From the NCBI GenBank assembly GCA_044507735.1, contig JBIQJB010000033.1:1-20534 (forward strand): 20,534 nt of DNA, written 5' to 3'. This stretch comes from Nitrosopumilales archaeon (lineage in GTDB: Archaea; Thermoproteota; Nitrososphaeria; Nitrososphaerales; Nitrososphaeraceae). The notes beneath the pieces are model-generated. The model was not told the DNA's origin. It saw only the letters and a program-made list of their open reading frames with translations, and did not search any database. The position numbers were made by a program, and so were the translations under genes. Below are positions 10,284-14,616 of the stretch, piece after piece (within the stretch, counting starts at the first letter, position 1; each line of letters begins with the position of its first letter).

Positions 10284-11768
10284 ATGAGTGGTAGCGCCCC
10301 GGCACTGCACCCGATCGAAAGATCGATACTCAAGGCTCTTGCCAGCACCAACTATTCGAGGACTGAGCAACTTGCTGCAGCCACAGGGCTTTCAATAGAT
10401 CAGATGCGGCGTGGTATAGAATGGCTCAAGTTCAAGAACCTTGTTTCAATAAATGAGTCTTCTCGCTCCACTGTGCGGCTGGCGTCAGAGGGAAAGGCTG
10501 CCGCTGAACATGGGCTACCTGAACGACGGCTAGTAGATGCAGTAAAAGAAGGGAAGACCATGATTAGCGAAGTACTTGCAGCCGGCGCCATAAGAAATGA
10601 AGAAGTAAATGCCGCCATCGCAGGTGCAAGGCGCAACCAATGGATACGGATAGAGGAAGGCAGGATGTTTGTAACGGCAGATGCAGAGAAAAAATCTGCG
10701 GAAGAGCTCTTGCTTGCAAAACTCGAAAGCGCCGTCGATGTTTCTCAATTAAATCCTGAAGAAAGAAAAGCTCTTGATCAGATCAAGAAGAGGCCAAACT
10801 ATGTGGAAGTCAGGGAAGAAAAAGAATTTGCAATATCGCTCACAGAGACTGGCAGGATGCTTATTCCATCACTTGACGAAGAGCAGGCAGAGCGCCGGCT
10901 TACGCCTGAGATGATTACGTCAGGCAAATGGAGACAGGCTAGGTTTTCCGCGCTTGATGTCGAAGCTCCTGCGCCAGCTGTCTACCCTGGCAGGCGTCAC
11001 CCCCTTGTCGATATTATTGAAGAGGTAAAGGAGATTTTTGTTGGTCTCGGCTTTTCAGAAATTGATGGCCCAATGGTGCAGTCGGGGTTCTGGAACTTTG
11101 ATGCACTGTTTACCCCCCAAGATCATCCTGCAAGAGAAATGCAGGACACCTTCTACCTTTCAGGTAGGAGACAGCCAATACCTGCAAGCAAGGATCAGAT
11201 CGCCCGGATTGCAGGAGTTCATGAGAAAGGCTGGAATAGCAGATGGGATGAAAGTGAAGCAGAGCGTGTTGTCCTGCGGACTCACACCACACCAGTTACA
11301 TTACAACACTTGGCAAAGTTCAAACCTGAAATTGGCCGATACTTTTCAGTCGGCAGGGTTTTCAGAAATGAAAAAGTCTCCTACAAGCATCTTGTCGAGT
11401 TTCATCAAGTCGAAGGAGTAGCCACGGCCCCTAAGGCGTCACTTCGAGACTTGATGGGCTTGCAGAAAGAGTTCTATGCCAAGATGGGGATAAAGAAAGT
11501 AAAATTCTGGCCAACATTCTTTCCATACACCGAGCCCTCGCTTCAGAGCATGGTCTACAATGAAACATTGGGAAAGTGGGTCGAGCTTTTTGGGATGGGG
11601 ATCTTTAGGCCAGAGGTTACCCGGCCACTTGGAATAAGAAATCCTGTGCTTGCATGGGGTGGAGGTCTTGAGAGGATTGCAATGCTCCGTTTTGGCCTGA
11701 ACGACGTTCGCGACCTTTACGGCAACAAACTCTCGTGGCTCAGGAGCGTGCCAAAATGCCCGTTGTAA
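10284..11768 (+). CDS. pheS: Phenylalanyl-tRNA synthetase alpha subunit
   Basis: WNFDALF.PQDHPAREMQDTFY, LRTHTT, FHQVEG, FPYTEPS and GLERIAM motifs. Confidence 0.97.
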   Translation: MSGSAPALHPIERSILKALASTNYSRTEQLAAATGLSIDQMRRGIEWLKFKNLVSINESSRSTVRLASEGKAAAEHGLPERRLVDAVKEGKTMISEVLAAGAIRNEEVNAAIAGARRNQWIRIEEGRMFVTADAEKKSAEELLLAKLESAVDVSQLNPEERKALDQIKKRPNYVEVREEKEFAISLTETGRMLIPSLDEEQAERRLTPEMITSGKWRQARFSALDVEAPAPAVYPGRRHPLVDIIEEVKEIFVGLGFSEIDGPMVQSGFWNFDALFTPQDHPAREMQDTFYLSGRRQPIPASKDQIARIAGVHEKGWNSRWDESEAERVVLRTHTTPVTLQHLAKFKPEIGRYFSVGRVFRNEKVSYKHLVEFHQVEGVATAPKASLRDLMGLQKEFYAKMGIKKVKFWPTFFPYTEPSLQSMVYNETLGKWVELFGMGIFRPEVTRPLGIRNPVLAWGGGLERIAMLRFGLNDVRDLYGNKLSWLRSVPKCPL

Positions 11769-13438
11769 ACGTAGCTCTTGACAGGCTAAAAAAACTCATC
11801 CCTGGCGTAAACGTTAACAAGGCACTTGACATACTGCCGTTCGTTGGACTTGACATTGAAGGCATCGACGATAATGTGATCAGGGTCGAGTACAACCCTA
11901 ACAGGCCTGACTTTTCTTCAGACTATGGTATTGCGAGAGCGCTCCGCGGCCTGCTGGAGATCGAGACTGGCATCCCGAAATTCAGGATAGCGGGAAAAAG
12001 CGGACTCACAGTAAAGGTTGATCCGTCAGTGAAAGAGGCAAGGCCATACATTGTGGCGCTTGTGGCAAGAAACGGCAGGCTTGATGACGCAACAATCAAG
12101 CAATTGATTGCAATGCAAGAAGACCTCCATAATGGTATTGGCAGGAGGCGTAAGAAAGCATCCATCGGGATCCACAACCTTGATGCGATCAGGTTCCCTG
12201 TGACATACAAGACCATCAGAGGAGACTATGCATTCGAGCCTCTTGGCGAAACATCAAGCCTGTCAATTGACCAGATCCTGAAAGAATCTGAAATTGGTAG
12301 ACAGTACGGCCACATTCTGTCAGGACTTGACAGGTATCCAATCATCGTTGACAATGATGGTACGGTTCTCTCTTTTCCACCAATAATTAATGGCAGCACC
12401 ACAAAGTTGGACGAGAAATGCCAAAACCTCTTTGTCGAAGTCACCGCGACTGATCAAAAGGCCGCCGAGGATACACTTGCTATAATCGCAGTCACACTCT
12501 ACGATGCGGGCTTTGAGATAAGGACAGTCGCCATAAACTCTGGTAAGAAGGTGAAGGTTGATACGCCGCAGATGAAACAAAAGATCATAGTCGCAGATAT
12601 CGATTATATCAACAACATCCTGGGGTTGGCGCTAGATGCAAAGCATGTGATCAAGAGCCTGAGAAAGAGCCGGATCGACGCAAAATCAGTTGGTAAAAAG
12701 ATCAGTTGCACCGTTCCTCGTTACAGAACAGACATCCACCATGCGATAGACATCGCAGAAGAAGTTGCGATAGGTTACGGCATATTCAACATGACACCTG
12801 TATTTCCACCGTCACCCACTGCGGGACAAAAAAATTCACTTTCGATATACTTTGCAGCGATAAGGGAGTCGCTTACAGGACTTGGCATGCTCGAATCACT
12901 CAACTTTTCCCTGACAAGCAGAGGAGTACAGTATGATGCGTTTGGCATCCATGGCCAGAACTTGCTGTCCGTCGATGGATCTAAGAGCATTGAACACGAA
13001 ATTCTTCGAGACTCGCTGATCCCTTCGCTTCTTCAATCTCTCTCCCGCAACGTGCACGAAGAATACCCGCAAAAGTTGTTCGAAATAGGCAAGACTTTCC
13101 AAGATGACTGCGAGGAAACAAGCGAGGGCATGAAGGTAGGTGTAGGAATAAGAGAGAACTGGAAGGTGGCTGCAGTAATAGCTCACTCAGATGCCGACTA
13201 CACGGAAATAAAGTCGGCAGTACAGGCACTAGCAAGATCCTGCTTTGGCAAGGAGGTCGAGACAAAGGCGGCATCAAACCCAATGTTCCTTGATGGTAGG
13301 TGCGGAGACGTTATTATTGATGGAAAGGTGGTAGGCACTGTAGGTGAAATCACTCCTCTTGCCCTCGAGAATTTCAAGCTAAGGGTGCCTGTGACTGCAT
13401 TTGAGATTGACCTCTCGGGCATCATAAAAGACAAATAG
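11756..13438 (+). CDS. pheT: Phenylalanyl-tRNA synthetase beta subunit (likely start ATG 11756, MPVV)
   Basis: NRPD, QEDLH..IGR.R.KASIGIH, SFPPIING, DIAEEVAIGYG and LRDSLIPSLL motifs; overlaps the pheS end. Confidence 0.97.
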   Translation: MPVVNVALDRLKKLIPGVNVNKALDILPFVGLDIEGIDDNVIRVEYNPNRPDFSSDYGIARALRGLLEIETGIPKFRIAGKSGLTVKVDPSVKEARPYIVALVARNGRLDDATIKQLIAMQEDLHNGIGRRRKKASIGIHNLDAIRFPVTYKTIRGDYAFEPLGETSSLSIDQILKESEIGRQYGHILSGLDRYPIIVDNDGTVLSFPPIINGSTTKLDEKCQNLFVEVTATDQKAAEDTLAIIAVTLYDAGFEIRTVAINSGKKVKVDTPQMKQKIIVADIDYINNILGLALDAKHVIKSLRKSRIDAKSVGKKISCTVPRYRTDIHHAIDIAEEVAIGYGIFNMTPVFPPSPTAGQKNSLSIYFAAIRESLTGLGMLESLNFSLTSRGVQYDAFGIHGQNLLSVDGSKSIEHEILRDSLIPSLLQSLSRNVHEEYPQKLFEIGKTFQDDCEETSEGMKVGVGIRENWKVAAVIAHSDADYTEIKSAVQALARSCFGKEVETKAASNPMFLDGRCGDVIIDGKVVGTVGEITPLALENFKLRVPVTAFEIDLSGIIKDK

Positions 13439-13460
13439 CATGAAAACACAGATAATGTAA

Positions 13461-13537
13461 CCCCGTTAAAGAGCACGCAGAGGACACAACTTGTGGCTAA
13501 CCTGTGACAGCGTGTGAGTCAGAGGCGGGGCACACAT
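13461..13537 (+). ncRNA. Candidate single-hairpin box H/ACA pseudouridylation guide RNA
   Basis: Lower stem CCCCG/CGGGG, internal loop TTAAAGA / GAGTCAGAGG, upper stem GCACGC/GCGTGT, K-turn-like GA-GG..CC-TGT-GA, ACA at 13532-13534, then a T-tract. Confidence 0.65.
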
Positions 13538-13578
13538 ATCATTTTTATAGCCAATGACACGCAAGAACGCCATTAACG

Positions 13579-14616
13579 ATGTCGCAGCAAGATAGTGAGA
13601 AGGGATCGTCTGAGAAAAAACCAAAGGCGATTGCATTGTTGTCAGGTGGCCTTGATAGCAGCCTGGCAGTAAGAATGATGTTGGAGCAAGGAGTTGATGT
13701 CGAGGCAGTAGCGATCAAGACCCCGTTCTGCGACTTTGACTGTGGCAAAGGTTGCGGCCATAGAGTAAAAGAGGTTGCCGACGAACTCGGAATAAAACTA
13801 AAGACTGTGTATTTCGGCGAGGACTATCTCCGTATGTTAAAGAACCCAAAGCACGGCTATGGCTCAGGAATGAACCCTTGCATTGACTGCCGAGGAATGA
13901 TGTACAATGCTGCAAAAGAACATATGGAAAGGACTGGTGCAGACTTTGTTATTACAGGTGAAGTGTTGTTCCAGCGGCCTATGAGCCAGAACAACCGTGC
14001 ACTGAATATCATTGAAAAGGAAGCAGGGATGGAAGGAAAGGTTCTGCGTCCTTTATCTGCAAAACACCTTCCTCCAACAGATGCTGAAAAAGCGGGGCTG
14101 ATAAAACGCGAAAACTTGGGCGACATCAAGGGTAGATCCAGAAAGGGACAGCTTGCACTTGCAAAGCATTTTGGCATAGCCGAACCTCCAAATGCAGCCG
14201 GAGGATGCTTGCTAACAGACCCTGCCTTTTCCAAGCGGGTAGAAGATATTATGGAACACTCTGCAGACATCCCCACGCTTAACGATATCGAATTGTTGAA
14301 AGTGGGAAGGCACTTTAGGTTGACGCCTGACGCCAAGCTGGTTGTGGGCAGAAACAAGGACGAAAATGAGGTGATAAAGGCGTTGGTTGTGGAGGGCGAT
14401 GCTGTCATTGAGACCAAAGATCACGTTGGGCCAACCTGCATACTGCGCGGCAAACATGACGACGACCTGGTGGCAAGGGCAGCCGCCATTGCATTGCGGT
14501 ACTCCGATGCTCCTAAGGACGTGAAATCAATAGTCAGAATAATCATCGATAACAACGAAAGAGAAATCAGTACAATGCCAGCTGATGTCGCTGTAACCGA
14601 CTCTATGCGTATATAG
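13579..14616 (+). CDS. PP-loop tRNA sulfurtransferase-like protein (ThiI/MnmA-related) with C-terminal DUF814-like domain
   Basis: SGGLDS, NPCIDCR, TGEVL.QRPMSQ, GGCLLTD, GRHFR and VGRN..EN motifs; no THUMP domain; TTTTTATA at 13542-13549. Confidence 0.85.
   Translation: MSQQDSEKGSSEKKPKAIALLSGGLDSSLAVRMMLEQGVDVEAVAIKTPFCDFDCGKGCGHRVKEVADELGIKLKTVYFGEDYLRMLKNPKHGYGSGMNPCIDCRGMMYNAAKEHMERTGADFVITGEVLFQRPMSQNNRALNIIEKEAGMEGKVLRPLSAKHLPPTDAEKAGLIKRENLGDIKGRSRKGQLALAKHFGIAEPPNAAGGCLLTDPAFSKRVEDIMEHSADIPTLNDIELLKVGRHFRLTPDAKLVVGRNKDENEVIKALVVEGDAVIETKDHVGPTCILRGKHDDDLVARAAAIALRYSDAPKDVKSIVRIIIDNNEREISTMPADVAVTDSMRI

What the first reader, a model, noticed from the sequence alone, without database searches (positions are those of the whole stretch)
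13461..13537. Candidate H/ACA guide RNA aimed at LSU rRNA helix 69, possibly dual-target
Seen: the 140-nt pheT-sulfurtransferase gap folds as lower stem CCCCG(13461-65)/CGGGG(13526-30), pocket strands TTAAAGA and GAGTCAGAGG, upper stem GCACGC/GCGTGT, a K-turn-like GA-GG...CC-UGU-GA, then ACA (13532-34) and a T-tract. Known: Cbf5-L7Ae guides have this shape with 14-16 nt from target U to ACA. Inference: if this organism's H69 reads AACUCUGACUCUCUUAAGG (recalled crenarchaeal/eukaryote-like form, not in the window), GUCAGAG + AAGA pairing exposes the U of GACU at 14 nt from ACA, and GAGUCAGAG + UUAA pairing exposes the U two nucleotides downstream at 16 nt. These correspond to yeast 25S psi2264 and psi2266. 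Caveat: the K-turn is oriented opposite to the usual arrangement.
Basis: partly seen in the sequence, partly recalled or inferred. Interest (0 to 1): 0.8.

Follow-up and report, generated by a model that had tools for sequence, protein, structure and literature searches.

The report
Archaeal H/ACA guide RNA for helix 69
This 75-base stretch after the pheT gene is very probably a small guide RNA that directs the conversion of one uridine, perhaps two, to pseudouridine in helix 69 of the large ribosomal RNA, and it is kept in nearly all relatives of this archaeon.

Summary
Window 13461-13534 (+) has a lower stem, a two-stranded pocket, an upper stem, a K-turn and an ACA box.

One sequence proves little. 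The fold z-score is -1.25. Of 300 shuffled guide pairs, 50 match rRNA as well. Comparison settles it.
- A covariance model finds one full-length copy in 139 of 151 genomes of the order and in 118 of 151 of the class.
- All four helices covary: 92.5% of cells paired, 168 double changes against 52 in shuffles.
- Cbf5, Nop10, Gar1 and L7Ae are encoded.

The conserved core GUCAGAG lies a fixed 14 nt from the box and pairs with CUCUGAC. This exposes 23S U2000 (E. coli 1921 equivalent). In one family where the RNA was not found, that U is C.

A second target two bases downstream (U2002) stays open. One family has a separate paralogue aimed at it. Verdict: a new family of a known kind, not in Rfam. 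Expression and the modification itself are untested.

The parts
13461..13465 (+). Lower stem P1, 5' strand (CCCCG)
   Evidence: It pairs with 13526-30. Of its 5 pairs, 4 are invariant and 1 shows a double change (CG to GC in 2 sequences), with 100% of cells paired over 85 distinct sequences.
13466..13472 (+). 5' pocket strand (UUAAAGA), the 5' guide. AGA pairs with UCU and UUA with UAA of helix 69. A13469 is a variable nucleotide that I read as bulged.
   Evidence: Position 13469 varies (A, T or G) while its flanks are conserved in the genus. Other families carry UUAAGA without the extra base.
13473..13478 (+). Upper stem P2, 5' strand (GCACGC)
   Evidence: It pairs with 13510-15. Five of its 6 pairs show double changes across the order.
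13479..13483 (+). K-turn, non-bulged strand: A (3n), G-A (sheared pairs), G-G (start of the canonical stem)
   Evidence: GAGG is invariant in the genus. The C-stem pair 42/128 covaries: GC 47, AU 7, UA 4, UG 4, GU 4, CG 2.
13484..13500 (+). Apical part with a small helix 13488-90/13496-98 (A-U, A.C, C-G here; AGC/GCU in relatives) and the conserved GGCUAA
   Evidence: Helix 4 has 3 of 3 pairs with double changes and 93.5% of cells paired.
13501..13509 (+). K-turn, bulged strand: CC (canonical stem), UGU (3-nt bulge), GA (sheared pairs), CA (one non-standard layer plus one bulged base)
   Evidence: CC-NRU-GA is conserved. The same kind of bulge next to the GA pairs is described for Pyrobaculum guides (passages of PMC4652768).
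13510..13515 (+). Upper stem P2, 3' strand (GCGUGU)
   Evidence: The bottom pair is G-U in 50 sequences, so the RNA is read from the + strand.
13516..13525 (+). 3' pocket strand (GAGUCAGAGG), the 3' guide. G13518-G13524 pair with CUCUGAC of 23S 1993-1999. G13516 and A13517 could extend the pairing to U2000 and C2001.
   Evidence: GUCAGA is invariant in the genus. The G of GUCAG lies 14 nt before the ANA box in 85 of 87 order sequences. CUCUGAC occurs once in 23S and never in 16S.
13526..13530 (+). Lower stem P1, 3' strand (CGGGG)
13531..13536 (+). Spacer C and the ACA box (13532-34; overlapping second ACA 13534-36)
   Evidence: The box is ACA in 81 and AUA in 6 of 87 order sequences. ANA variants are accepted for this class (passages of PMC2377435 and PMC7991803).
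13542..13549 (+). TTTTTATA: a possible oligo-T terminator for the small RNA and/or a TATA box for the downstream gene (ATG at 13579). It is not a conserved part of the RNA.
   Evidence: A run of 4 or more T starts within 16 nt after the box in 28 of 87 loci, against 168 of 1740 random positions. The role is inferred.

Best explanation
Window 13461-13534 (+) encodes a single-hairpin archaeal box H/ACA guide RNA of about 75 nt.

Inferred mechanism, from the established H/ACA model:
- L7Ae binds the K-turn on top of the upper stem.
- Cbf5-Nop10-Gar1 bind the 5-bp lower stem and the ACA box.
- The two pocket strands pair with the 3' strand of helix 69 of 23S rRNA. The 3' strand G13518-G13524 pairs with CUCUGAC (23S 1993-1999). 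The 5' strand A13470-A13472 pairs with UCU (2002-2004), and U13466-A13468 pairs with UAA, leaving A13469 bulged.
- This leaves U2000 and C2001 unpaired, 14 nt from the ACA box, so Cbf5 converts U2000 to pseudouridine. U2000 corresponds to E. coli position 1921 and, from recall, to yeast 25S psi2264.

Shown here: the structure, its conservation and covariation, the complementarity, the constant spacing and the presence of the proteins. Inferred: transcription, RNP assembly and the modification itself.

My odds are about 0.9 that it is an H/ACA guide and about 0.75 that U2000 is a target.
For: 1. Anatomy at the stated coordinates.

2. Conservation.
- The element is 80-93% identical in the genus, while the whole 351-nt query including coding flanks is 70-85% identical. 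Several matches break exactly at its edges.
- Model R1 finds one full-length match per genome in 94 of 151 order genomes.
- The refined model R3 finds it in 139 of 151 (98 of 103 high-quality genomes) and in 118 of 151 genomes of the class, including four other-order families at 28 of 29.

3. Covariation on 85 distinct sequences.
- 92.5% of cells are paired, against 79.1% in shuffles and 39-56% when the partners are slid.
- 168 cells carry double changes, against 52 in shuffles and 17-56 when slid.
- 10 of 16 pairs show double changes.
- Frequent G-U pairs fix the strand as +.

4. Target.
- The genome's own helix 69 carries the complementary string.
- 23S U2000 is the best-scoring site in 16S+23S for 14 of 16 family representatives.
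- The G that pairs next to the target lies 14 nt from the box in 85 of 87 sequences.
- 76 of 86 orthologues can form this register.
- The variable base 13469 fits a bulge.

5. Guide and target go together.
- 8 of 8 genomes with the RNA whose 23S piece I read have U at the target.
- In family f26 the RNA was not found in 0 of 17 genomes. Both 23S pieces recovered there have C at the target and G at its pairing partner.

6. Cbf5 (373 bits), Nop10, Gar1 (at the cut-off) and L7Ae are encoded.

7. The published rules are met: an ANA box, 14-16 nt to the pocket, a K-turn 5-6 bp above the pocket, and a dominant 3' guide (passages of PMC2377435, PMC7991803 and PMC4652768).
Against: - There is no sign of the fold in thermodynamics alone.
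- In single sequences the complementarity is not significant. Shuffled guides do as well in 14 of 100 runs for this genome and in up to 52 of 100 for other families.
- In this genome two guide bases (G13516, A13517) stay unpaired next to the upper stem in the U2000 register. Only 6 of 86 orthologues form it with no unpaired guide base at the stem.
- The lower stem has 5 bp, against 7-9 in the Pyrococcus type.
- The stack from the pocket to the second G-A pair has 9 pairs plus one bulged base. The 10 layers that PMC4652768 calls necessary are not clearly met.
- One genome of genus g12 has the target U but no detectable RNA.
- In Sulfolobus islandicus the mapped helix 69 pseudouridines are the equivalents of E. 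coli 1917 and yeast 2266. The position proposed here is not among the sites in the part of its Table 1 that I read.
- No transcript ends, protein binding or modification data exist for this organism.
Confidence: 0.72

Rival explanations
1. It is the same H/ACA guide RNA, but one hairpin serves two uridines two bases apart. These are U2000 in the 14-nt register and U2002 in the 16-nt register (E. coli 1923, yeast psi2266). In the second register G13516 and A13517 also pair, giving 9 bp, and U2002-C2003 are left unpaired.
For: - The 9+4 bp pairing exists.
- The two extra bases are G then a purine in five families (f1, f4, f6, f9, f13). 38 of 86 orthologues can form at least 7 bp plus at least 2 bp in this register.
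- In family f29 two genomes each carry a second paralogue. Its 3' strand, G(A/G)GUCAGG, puts U2002 at 14 nt with 8+3 bp. So that position seems to be a real target in this class.
- In S. islandicus the equivalent U2066 is modified by a guide using only a 6-bp 3' duplex (Table 1 and section 19 of PMC11077068).
- Archaeal motifs can guide up to three sites (section 31 of PMC2377435).
Against: - 16 nt is the upper limit for archaea, and 14-15 nt is the rule in P. abyssi.
- Three bases of the 5' strand (AGA) would stay unpaired next to the stem, or would compete for U2002 itself.
- The two extra bases are missing or cannot pair in many families: f2, f7, f8, f10, f11, f12, f15, f17, f19, f21, f25.
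- Family f26 keeps U at 2002 but the RNA was not found there.
Confidence: 0.3
2. It is the same RNA, but in this genus the only target is U2002 (16-nt register), the target having shifted from the ancestral U2000.
For: The longest uninterrupted duplex in this genome is the 9-bp one ending at C2001. Sulfolobus modifies the equivalent of U2002 and not of U2000.
Against: AGA next to the stem is conserved and complementary to 2002-2004. The constant 14-nt spacing of the core is kept in this genus too.
Confidence: 0.08
3. It is a K-turn hairpin without guide function. It could be an L7Ae- or Cbf5-binding structural or regulatory element in the 3' end of the pheT transcript, comparable to the non-guide K-turn hairpin sR666 of S. 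islandicus.
For: It lies downstream of pheT on the same strand in 76 of 87 loci. A Cbf5-bound hairpin without guide strands is known (PMC11077068, passage).
Against: The unpaired pocket strands are the best-conserved part, which a non-guide element does not need. They match an invariant rRNA site at the canonical spacing. The RNA was not found where the target U is gone.
Confidence: 0.05

Closest known systems
Classic archaeal single-hairpin H/ACA sRNAs (Pyrococcus Pab21, Pab91, Pf9; S. islandicus sR115, sR435)
   Same: They share the lower stem, pocket, upper stem, apical K-turn or K-loop and 3' ANA box. They also share bipartite pairing that leaves U-N unpaired 14-16 nt from the box (passages of PMC2377435, PMC3726423 and PMC11077068).
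   Different: The lower stem has 5 bp rather than 7-9. The 3' pocket strand has 10 nt, giving 16 nt to the closing pair. A bulged base sits next to the G-A pairs. No Rfam family matches.
Pyrobaculum sR201/sR202 and the Pyrobaculum guides with a bulge beside the G-A pairs
   Same: The lower stem is short (5-6 bp). One bulged base lies one pair away from the two G-A pairs on the 3' side (passages of PMC4652768).
   Different: They come from a different phylum-level lineage and have different guide sequences. I compared descriptions only, not sequences.
S. islandicus sR148 (atypical H/ACA-like RNA)
   Same: It is aimed at helix 69 of 23S. It guides two nearby uridines, U2060 and U2066, the latter equal to yeast psi2266 and so to U2002 here (Table 1 of PMC11077068).
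   Different: [quoted passage not shown] Its sites are the equivalents of E. coli 1917 and 1923, not 1921. The pairing drawing is in a figure I could not see.
Haloferax volcanii sR-h45 and the P. abyssi guide for 23S psi2016
   Same: Both are Cbf5-dependent, RNA-guided pseudouridylations in stem-loop 69 (abstracts listed; section 26 of PMC2377435).
   Different: Those sites are the universally conserved loop positions. Their equivalence to E. coli 1915/1917 is from recall for Haloferax. The site here lies in the 3' strand of the stem.
Yeast snR3 (psi2264) and snR84 (psi2266)
   Same: They address the same two positions of helix 69, which has the same local sequence (recalled, not tested here). 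The equivalence of psi2266 is stated in PMC11077068.
   Different: They are eukaryotic two-hairpin snoRNAs without a K-turn. No sequence relationship was tested.

Membership tests
Archaeal box H/ACA guide sRNA | Lower stem directly followed by a single-stranded ANA (mostly ACA) box | tested here: met
   The stem is 5 bp (13461-65/13526-30), then C, then ACA 13532-34. The box is ACA in 81 and AUA in 6 of 87 sequences. The stem is shorter than the 7-9 bp of Pyrococcus but within the 5-6 bp of Pyrobaculum sR201/202.
Archaeal box H/ACA guide sRNA | Internal loop (pseudouridylation pocket) with two strands of about 5-11 nt | tested here: met
   The strands are 7 nt and 10 nt. The descriptor limits are from PMC2377435.
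Archaeal box H/ACA guide sRNA | Upper stem topped by a K-turn or K-loop with tandem sheared G-A pairs, 5-6 bp above the pocket | tested here: met
   There are six pairs, then A.C with a bulged A, then G-A/A-G, a 3-nt bulge UGU and a GG/CC stem. These are conserved and the C-stem covaries. The rule is from passages of PMC7991803.
Archaeal box H/ACA guide sRNA | Ten stacked layers from the pocket-closing pair to the second G-A pair (Toffano-Nioche model) | tested here: inconclusive
   I count 9 layers on the 5' strand and 10 bases on the 3' strand, including one bulged base. The rule is from passages of PMC4652768. Its supplementary descriptors were not seen.
Archaeal box H/ACA guide sRNA | 14-16 nt between the box and the target position | tested here: met
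   It is 14 nt for U2000 and 16 nt for U2002 or the closing pair.
Archaeal box H/ACA guide sRNA | Bipartite complementarity to a stable RNA that leaves U and its 3' neighbour unpaired | tested here: met
   The pairing is 7+4 bp, all Watson-Crick, at 23S U2000. This is the top site for 14 of 16 family representatives. It is not significant in a single sequence (14 of 100 shuffles).
Archaeal box H/ACA guide sRNA | The genome encodes Cbf5, Nop10, Gar1 and L7Ae | tested here: met
   373 bits; 69 bits; 29.1 bits, at the cut-off; 97.9 bits.
Archaeal box H/ACA guide sRNA | Expressed as a discrete small RNA bound by Cbf5 and L7Ae | not testable with these tools
   Only assembled contigs of relatives were available, from two soil RNA libraries of one study, and they cannot show transcript ends.
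Archaeal box H/ACA guide sRNA | Pseudouridine present at the predicted target and dependent on the RNA | not testable with these tools
   No modification data are available.
Any curated Rfam family (release 15) | Score at or above the family's gathering threshold | tested here: not met
   There was no match for the window at gathering thresholds, and none relevant at E up to 10 for 13300-13700. There was none for orthologues either, apart from an unrelated tRNA.

The most novel reading that the evidence does not exclude
In this genus a single pocket modifies two uridines two bases apart in the helix 69 stem by sliding between a 14-nt and a 16-nt register. It would thus merge the jobs that two separate paralogous hairpins do in family f29 and that two snoRNAs do in yeast. 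That would give these archaea a eukaryote-like pair of helix 69 stem pseudouridines.
Probability: 0.3. Interest if true: 0.65.

Novelty: new member of a known kind. Interest (0 to 1): 0.55.

Why it matters
H/ACA guides are known from few archaea. I found no report for this class in the library searched (the hits were unrelated). The RNA matches no Rfam family.

If the reading is right:
- It supplies an H/ACA guide family, not in Rfam, that is found in most genomes of a whole archaeal class.
- It predicts a pseudouridine in the stem of helix 69. In what I read, that region is documented as modified in eukaryotes, and at the neighbouring position in Sulfolobus.
- It offers natural test cases: a family where target and guide are both gone, a family with two paralogues for adjacent sites, and a change from a two-hairpin to a one-hairpin RNA.

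For a specialist this is useful and tidy rather than very surprising, since the protein machinery is present.

Tried and rejected
- **Thermodynamic folding as evidence.** Neither strand differs from shuffles, and the minimum-energy fold closes the pocket.
- **Rfam.** It gave nothing for the window or for orthologues.
- **Target statistics on single sequences.** They are not significant, so I relied on comparison.
- **Expression.** One search for runs found two soil RNA libraries of one study and one run of unknown kind, each holding small shares of the words. Laying them gave short contigs of relatives over 13420-13555 and 13490-13555. These cannot show ends, strand or transcription, so I draw no conclusion from them.
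- **Minus-strand RNA.** Rejected, because the many G-U pairs would be A.C on the other strand.
- **Leader of the downstream PP-loop gene.** Rejected, because that gene is adjacent in only 8 of 87 loci, whereas pheT is upstream in 76 of 87.
- **Mechanical ORFs on the minus strand (13198-13476, 13466-13636).** Not pursued, because the conservation pattern is that of paired RNA.
- **Extension of the upper stem by tandem sheared pairs G13471.A13517 and A13472.G13516.** Rejected, because the 3' partners are not conserved.
- **A copy in this genome of the upstream hairpin seen in other families.** A regex gave only chance-like hits, and model R2 gave none at E up to 10.
- **A weak second R3 match in G141 (27.5 bits).** It lacks the CCCCG stem and I did not follow it.
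- **Literature searches.** Those that used the phrase 'H ACA' returned nothing. They probably cannot match the printed 'H/ACA', so they are uninformative.
- **Supplementary files.** I did not open them. The descriptors of PMC4652768, the figures of PMC11077068 (sR148 pairing, helix 69 sequence) and the figures of PMC2377435 could bear on the 10-layer rule and on site equivalences.

**Unpublished genomes.**
- G022 and G009 appear in the tally and in the listings. They were left out of alignments A1-A3 and of all later counts.
- G132 is counted as a hit in the tallies.
- G277 is counted as a hit, and its locus L140 was not used.
- No conclusion rests on them.

Full report
**What is there.** The 140-nt gap lies between pheT and the next gene.
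- pheT is the ORF 11735-13438. Its Pfam hits are tRNA_synthFbeta, B5 and B3_4.
- The next gene is 13579-14616, with a ThiI/MnmA-type PP-loop domain plus NFACT-R_2.

The precise positions are:
- P1: 13461-65 with 13526-30.
- 5' pocket strand: 13466-72.
- P2: 13473-78 with 13510-15.
- K-turn: A13479, G13480-A13481, G13482-G13483 on the 5' side; C13501-C13502, U13503-U13505, G13506-A13507, C13508-A13509 on the 3' side.
- 3' pocket strand: 13516-25.
- Box: C13531, then ACA 13532-34.

**One sequence alone says little.** The minimum-energy fold of either strand is no better than shuffles (z -1.25 and -0.92), and it does not keep the pocket open. Rfam release 15 has no match. A scan of the genome's own 16S and 23S with the canonical H/ACA pairing rule puts 23S U2000 first (7+4 Watson-Crick pairs). 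But 50 of 300 shuffled guide pairs reach the same total somewhere.

**Relatives decide the matter.**
- By BLAST the element is 80-93% identical in 22 of 24 other genomes of the genus. The whole 351-nt query, coding flanks included, is 70-85% identical. Several matches begin or end exactly at the element's edges.
- Model R1, built from 13 genus sequences with my structure, found one full-length match per genome in 94 of 151 genomes of the order.
- I fetched 87 of these loci, realigned them and built model R3. R3 finds the RNA in 139 of 151 genomes of the order (98 of 103 high-quality ones).
- R3 also finds it in 118 of 151 genomes of the class. In other orders the counts are f21 9/9, f24 9/10, f25 8/8, f29 2/2 and f22 4/14. 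It was not found in f26 (0/17), f27 (0/2), f28 (0/1) or f23 (0/1).

**Covariation on 85 distinct sequences.**
- The four helices are paired in 92.5% of cells. Column shuffles give 79.1%, and sliding the partners gives 39-56%.
- 168 cells carry changes on both sides, against 52 in shuffles and 17-56 when slid.
- 10 of 16 pairs show such changes.
- This alignment was fitted to the model's structure, which favours it somewhat. The slid controls and the variety of pair types argue that the signal is real.
- G-U pairs are frequent, so the RNA is read from the + strand.

**K-turn.** The two sheared G-A pairs abut the upper stem, the G-C stem is apical and the 3-nt bulge is on the 3' strand. The reviews describe the archaeal motif as a K-turn or K-loop on top of P2, with the G-A pairs retained when the canonical stem is replaced by a loop (passages of PMC7991803 and PMC3726423). 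With the G-A pairs on the P2 side, the geometry of a K-turn puts the bulge on the descending strand. This is my inference, since I could not see a drawn example.

The 5-bp lower stem and the bulged base beside the G-A pairs both have precedents in Pyrobaculum guides (passages of PMC4652768). The same paper's rule of ten stacked layers is only nearly met here, with nine pairs plus one bulged base.

**Proteins.** Cbf5 (373 bits), Nop10 (69 bits), Gar1 (29.1 bits, at the cut-off) and L7Ae (97.9 bits) are all encoded.

**Target.** The same string is present in seven other genomes with the RNA whose 23S piece I read: G041, G113, G083, G033, G188, G206 and G177.

Across the order and class the best-conserved part of the RNA is not a stem. 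It is the 3' pocket strand core GUCAGAG, followed by CGGGG, one base and the box. Its first G lies 14 nt before the ANA box in 85 of 87 order sequences. The script counted 83, and two more were miscounted because of an overlapping GUCAGUCAG. One sequence has 15 nt and one has CUCAG. The core is complementary to CUCUGAC, which occurs once in 23S and not in 16S.

The 5' strand is less conserved, but it nearly always ends in AGA or a close variant, complementary to UCU two bases further on. In the genus it reads UUA-N-AGA, with N the only freely varying base. In several other families it is UUAAGA with no extra base, which pairs with all six of UCUUAA. So N (A13469) is best read as a bulge.

This register leaves U2000 and C2001 unpaired, 14 nt from the box, which is the archaeal rule (14 or 15 nt in P. 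abyssi, 14-16 nt generally).
- It is available in 76 of 86 parsed orthologues, though with no unpaired guide base next to the stem in only 6.
- It is the top site in 16S+23S for 14 of 16 family representatives.
- By alignment to the E. coli sequence, which I recalled, U2000 corresponds to position 1921, in the 3' strand of the helix 69 stem.
- Its equivalence to yeast psi2264 is also from recall.
- The neighbouring equivalence (U2002 = yeast psi2266) follows from Table 1 of PMC11077068, if Sulfolobus has the same local sequence.

**A natural experiment.** In family f26 the RNA was not found in any of 17 genomes. The two 23S pieces I could recover there read GGGGGUAACUCUGACCCUCUUAAGG. The target U is C, and its pairing partner across the stem has changed from A to G, while the U two bases downstream is kept. 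Guide and target U seem to have gone together.

This is one evolutionary event, not a statistic. There is also a counter-example. One genome of genus g12, where R3 found nothing in 5 genomes, still has the U. That may reflect divergence beyond the model, loss of the modification, or an incomplete assembly.

**One target or two.** In this genome the 3' strand has two more bases (G13516, A13517) between the core and the upper stem. They can pair with U2000 and C2001, giving a 9-bp duplex that exposes U2002 at 16 nt.

In favour of a second target:
- The two extra bases are G then a purine in families f1, f4, f6, f9 and f13.
- 38 of 86 orthologues can form this register.
- Two genomes of family f29 each carry, besides the ordinary hairpin (GUCAGAGG, 7+6 pairs on U2000), a second paralogue. 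Its 3' strand, G(A/G)GUCAGG, puts U2002 at exactly 14 nt.
- In S. islandicus the equivalent uridine is modified by a guide with only a short 3' duplex.

Against it:
- The extra bases are absent or non-complementary in many families.
- 16 nt is at the limit of the allowed spacing.
- AGA would be left unpaired or would compete for U2002.
- Family f26, where the RNA was not found, keeps that U.

I put the dual reading at about 0.3.

**Setting.** The RNA lies downstream of pheT on the same strand in 76 of 87 loci, and in 59 of these the gap is at most 260 nt. In 64 of 87 loci that gap holds another H/ACA-type hairpin directly 5' of this one (model R2). So the ancestral gene was probably a two-hairpin RNA. 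In family f1 only one locus (L106) has it, and none was found anywhere in this genome.

Here only 22 nt separate the pheT stop from the hairpin, so the RNA may be cut from a pheT read-through transcript. I found no clear promoter, and this remains open.

The TTTTTATA after the box may be a terminator, the TATA box of the downstream gene, or both. T-runs follow the box in 28 of 87 loci, against about 10% of random positions.

**Expression.** Only assembled contigs of relatives from two soil RNA libraries of one study cover the element. They prove nothing about transcripts.

**Verdict.** This is a real, strongly conserved RNA gene of the archaeal box H/ACA class and a family not in Rfam. It is aimed at the 3' strand of helix 69, with U2000 as the best-supported target and U2002 as a possible second one. 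Transcription, RNP binding and the modification itself remain to be shown.

Noticed in passing
L070:1420-1491, L053:1436-1494, L044:1435-1493 and 61 further loci (none in the window): A second H/ACA-type hairpin lies directly 5' of this one in 64 of 87 orthologous loci. It has a P1 like GCACG/CGUGC, the conserved pocket motifs GACGG and ACCCAG, a K-loop or K-turn with UGA...UGA, and an ACA box. In family f1 only L106 has it. Model R2 finds none in this genome at E up to 10. Its target is unclear; the best rough fit is 16S U1316 with 6+4 bp.
   Followed up: partly
L145/L146 and L159/L160 (genomes G244 and G230, family f29): Two paralogous hairpins occur per genome. One has the 3' strand GUCAGAGG, putting the helix 69 U equivalent to 23S 2000 at 14 nt. 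The other has G(A/G)GUCAGG, putting the U two bases downstream at 14 nt. Both genomes are incomplete (68% and 86%).
   Followed up: partly
L167 and L168 (23S of G212 and G204, family f26): The helix 69 stem reads GGGGG...GACCCUC instead of GGGAG...GACUCUC. An A-U pair has been replaced by G-C at the predicted target, in the family where the RNA was not found in 0 of 17 genomes.
   Followed up: partly
L075, L103, L108, L110, L111, L119 (family f15, genus g35); L151, L157 (family f21): The box is AUA instead of ACA in these lineages. This accounts for 6 of the 87 order sequences and 2 of the 20 from other orders.
   Followed up: no
window 13579-14616 (+): The downstream gene fuses a ThiI/MnmA-type PP-loop domain (residues about 16-159) with a C-terminal NFACT-R_2 RNA-binding domain (243-334), so it is probably a tRNA thiolation-type enzyme. 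TTTTTATA at 13542-49 lies about 30 nt before its ATG, which would suit a leaderless transcript.
   Followed up: no
G000:C24:71536-71799: There is a second, weak match to the Cbf5 model (31 bits, profile positions 222-309, a 167-aa frame). It is presumably a separate PUA-domain protein.
   Followed up: no
L174:101-166 (-) (G141:C4:333568-333633): A weak second match to model R3 (27.5 bits, E 0.008) occurs in a genome of the same family. It is AT-rich, contains AAGUCAG and lacks the CCCCG stem.
   Followed up: partly
L044:1778-1847 (-): A tRNA gene lies about 200 nt downstream of the orthologous RNA in G067 (Rfam tRNA, 35.6 bits).
   Followed up: no
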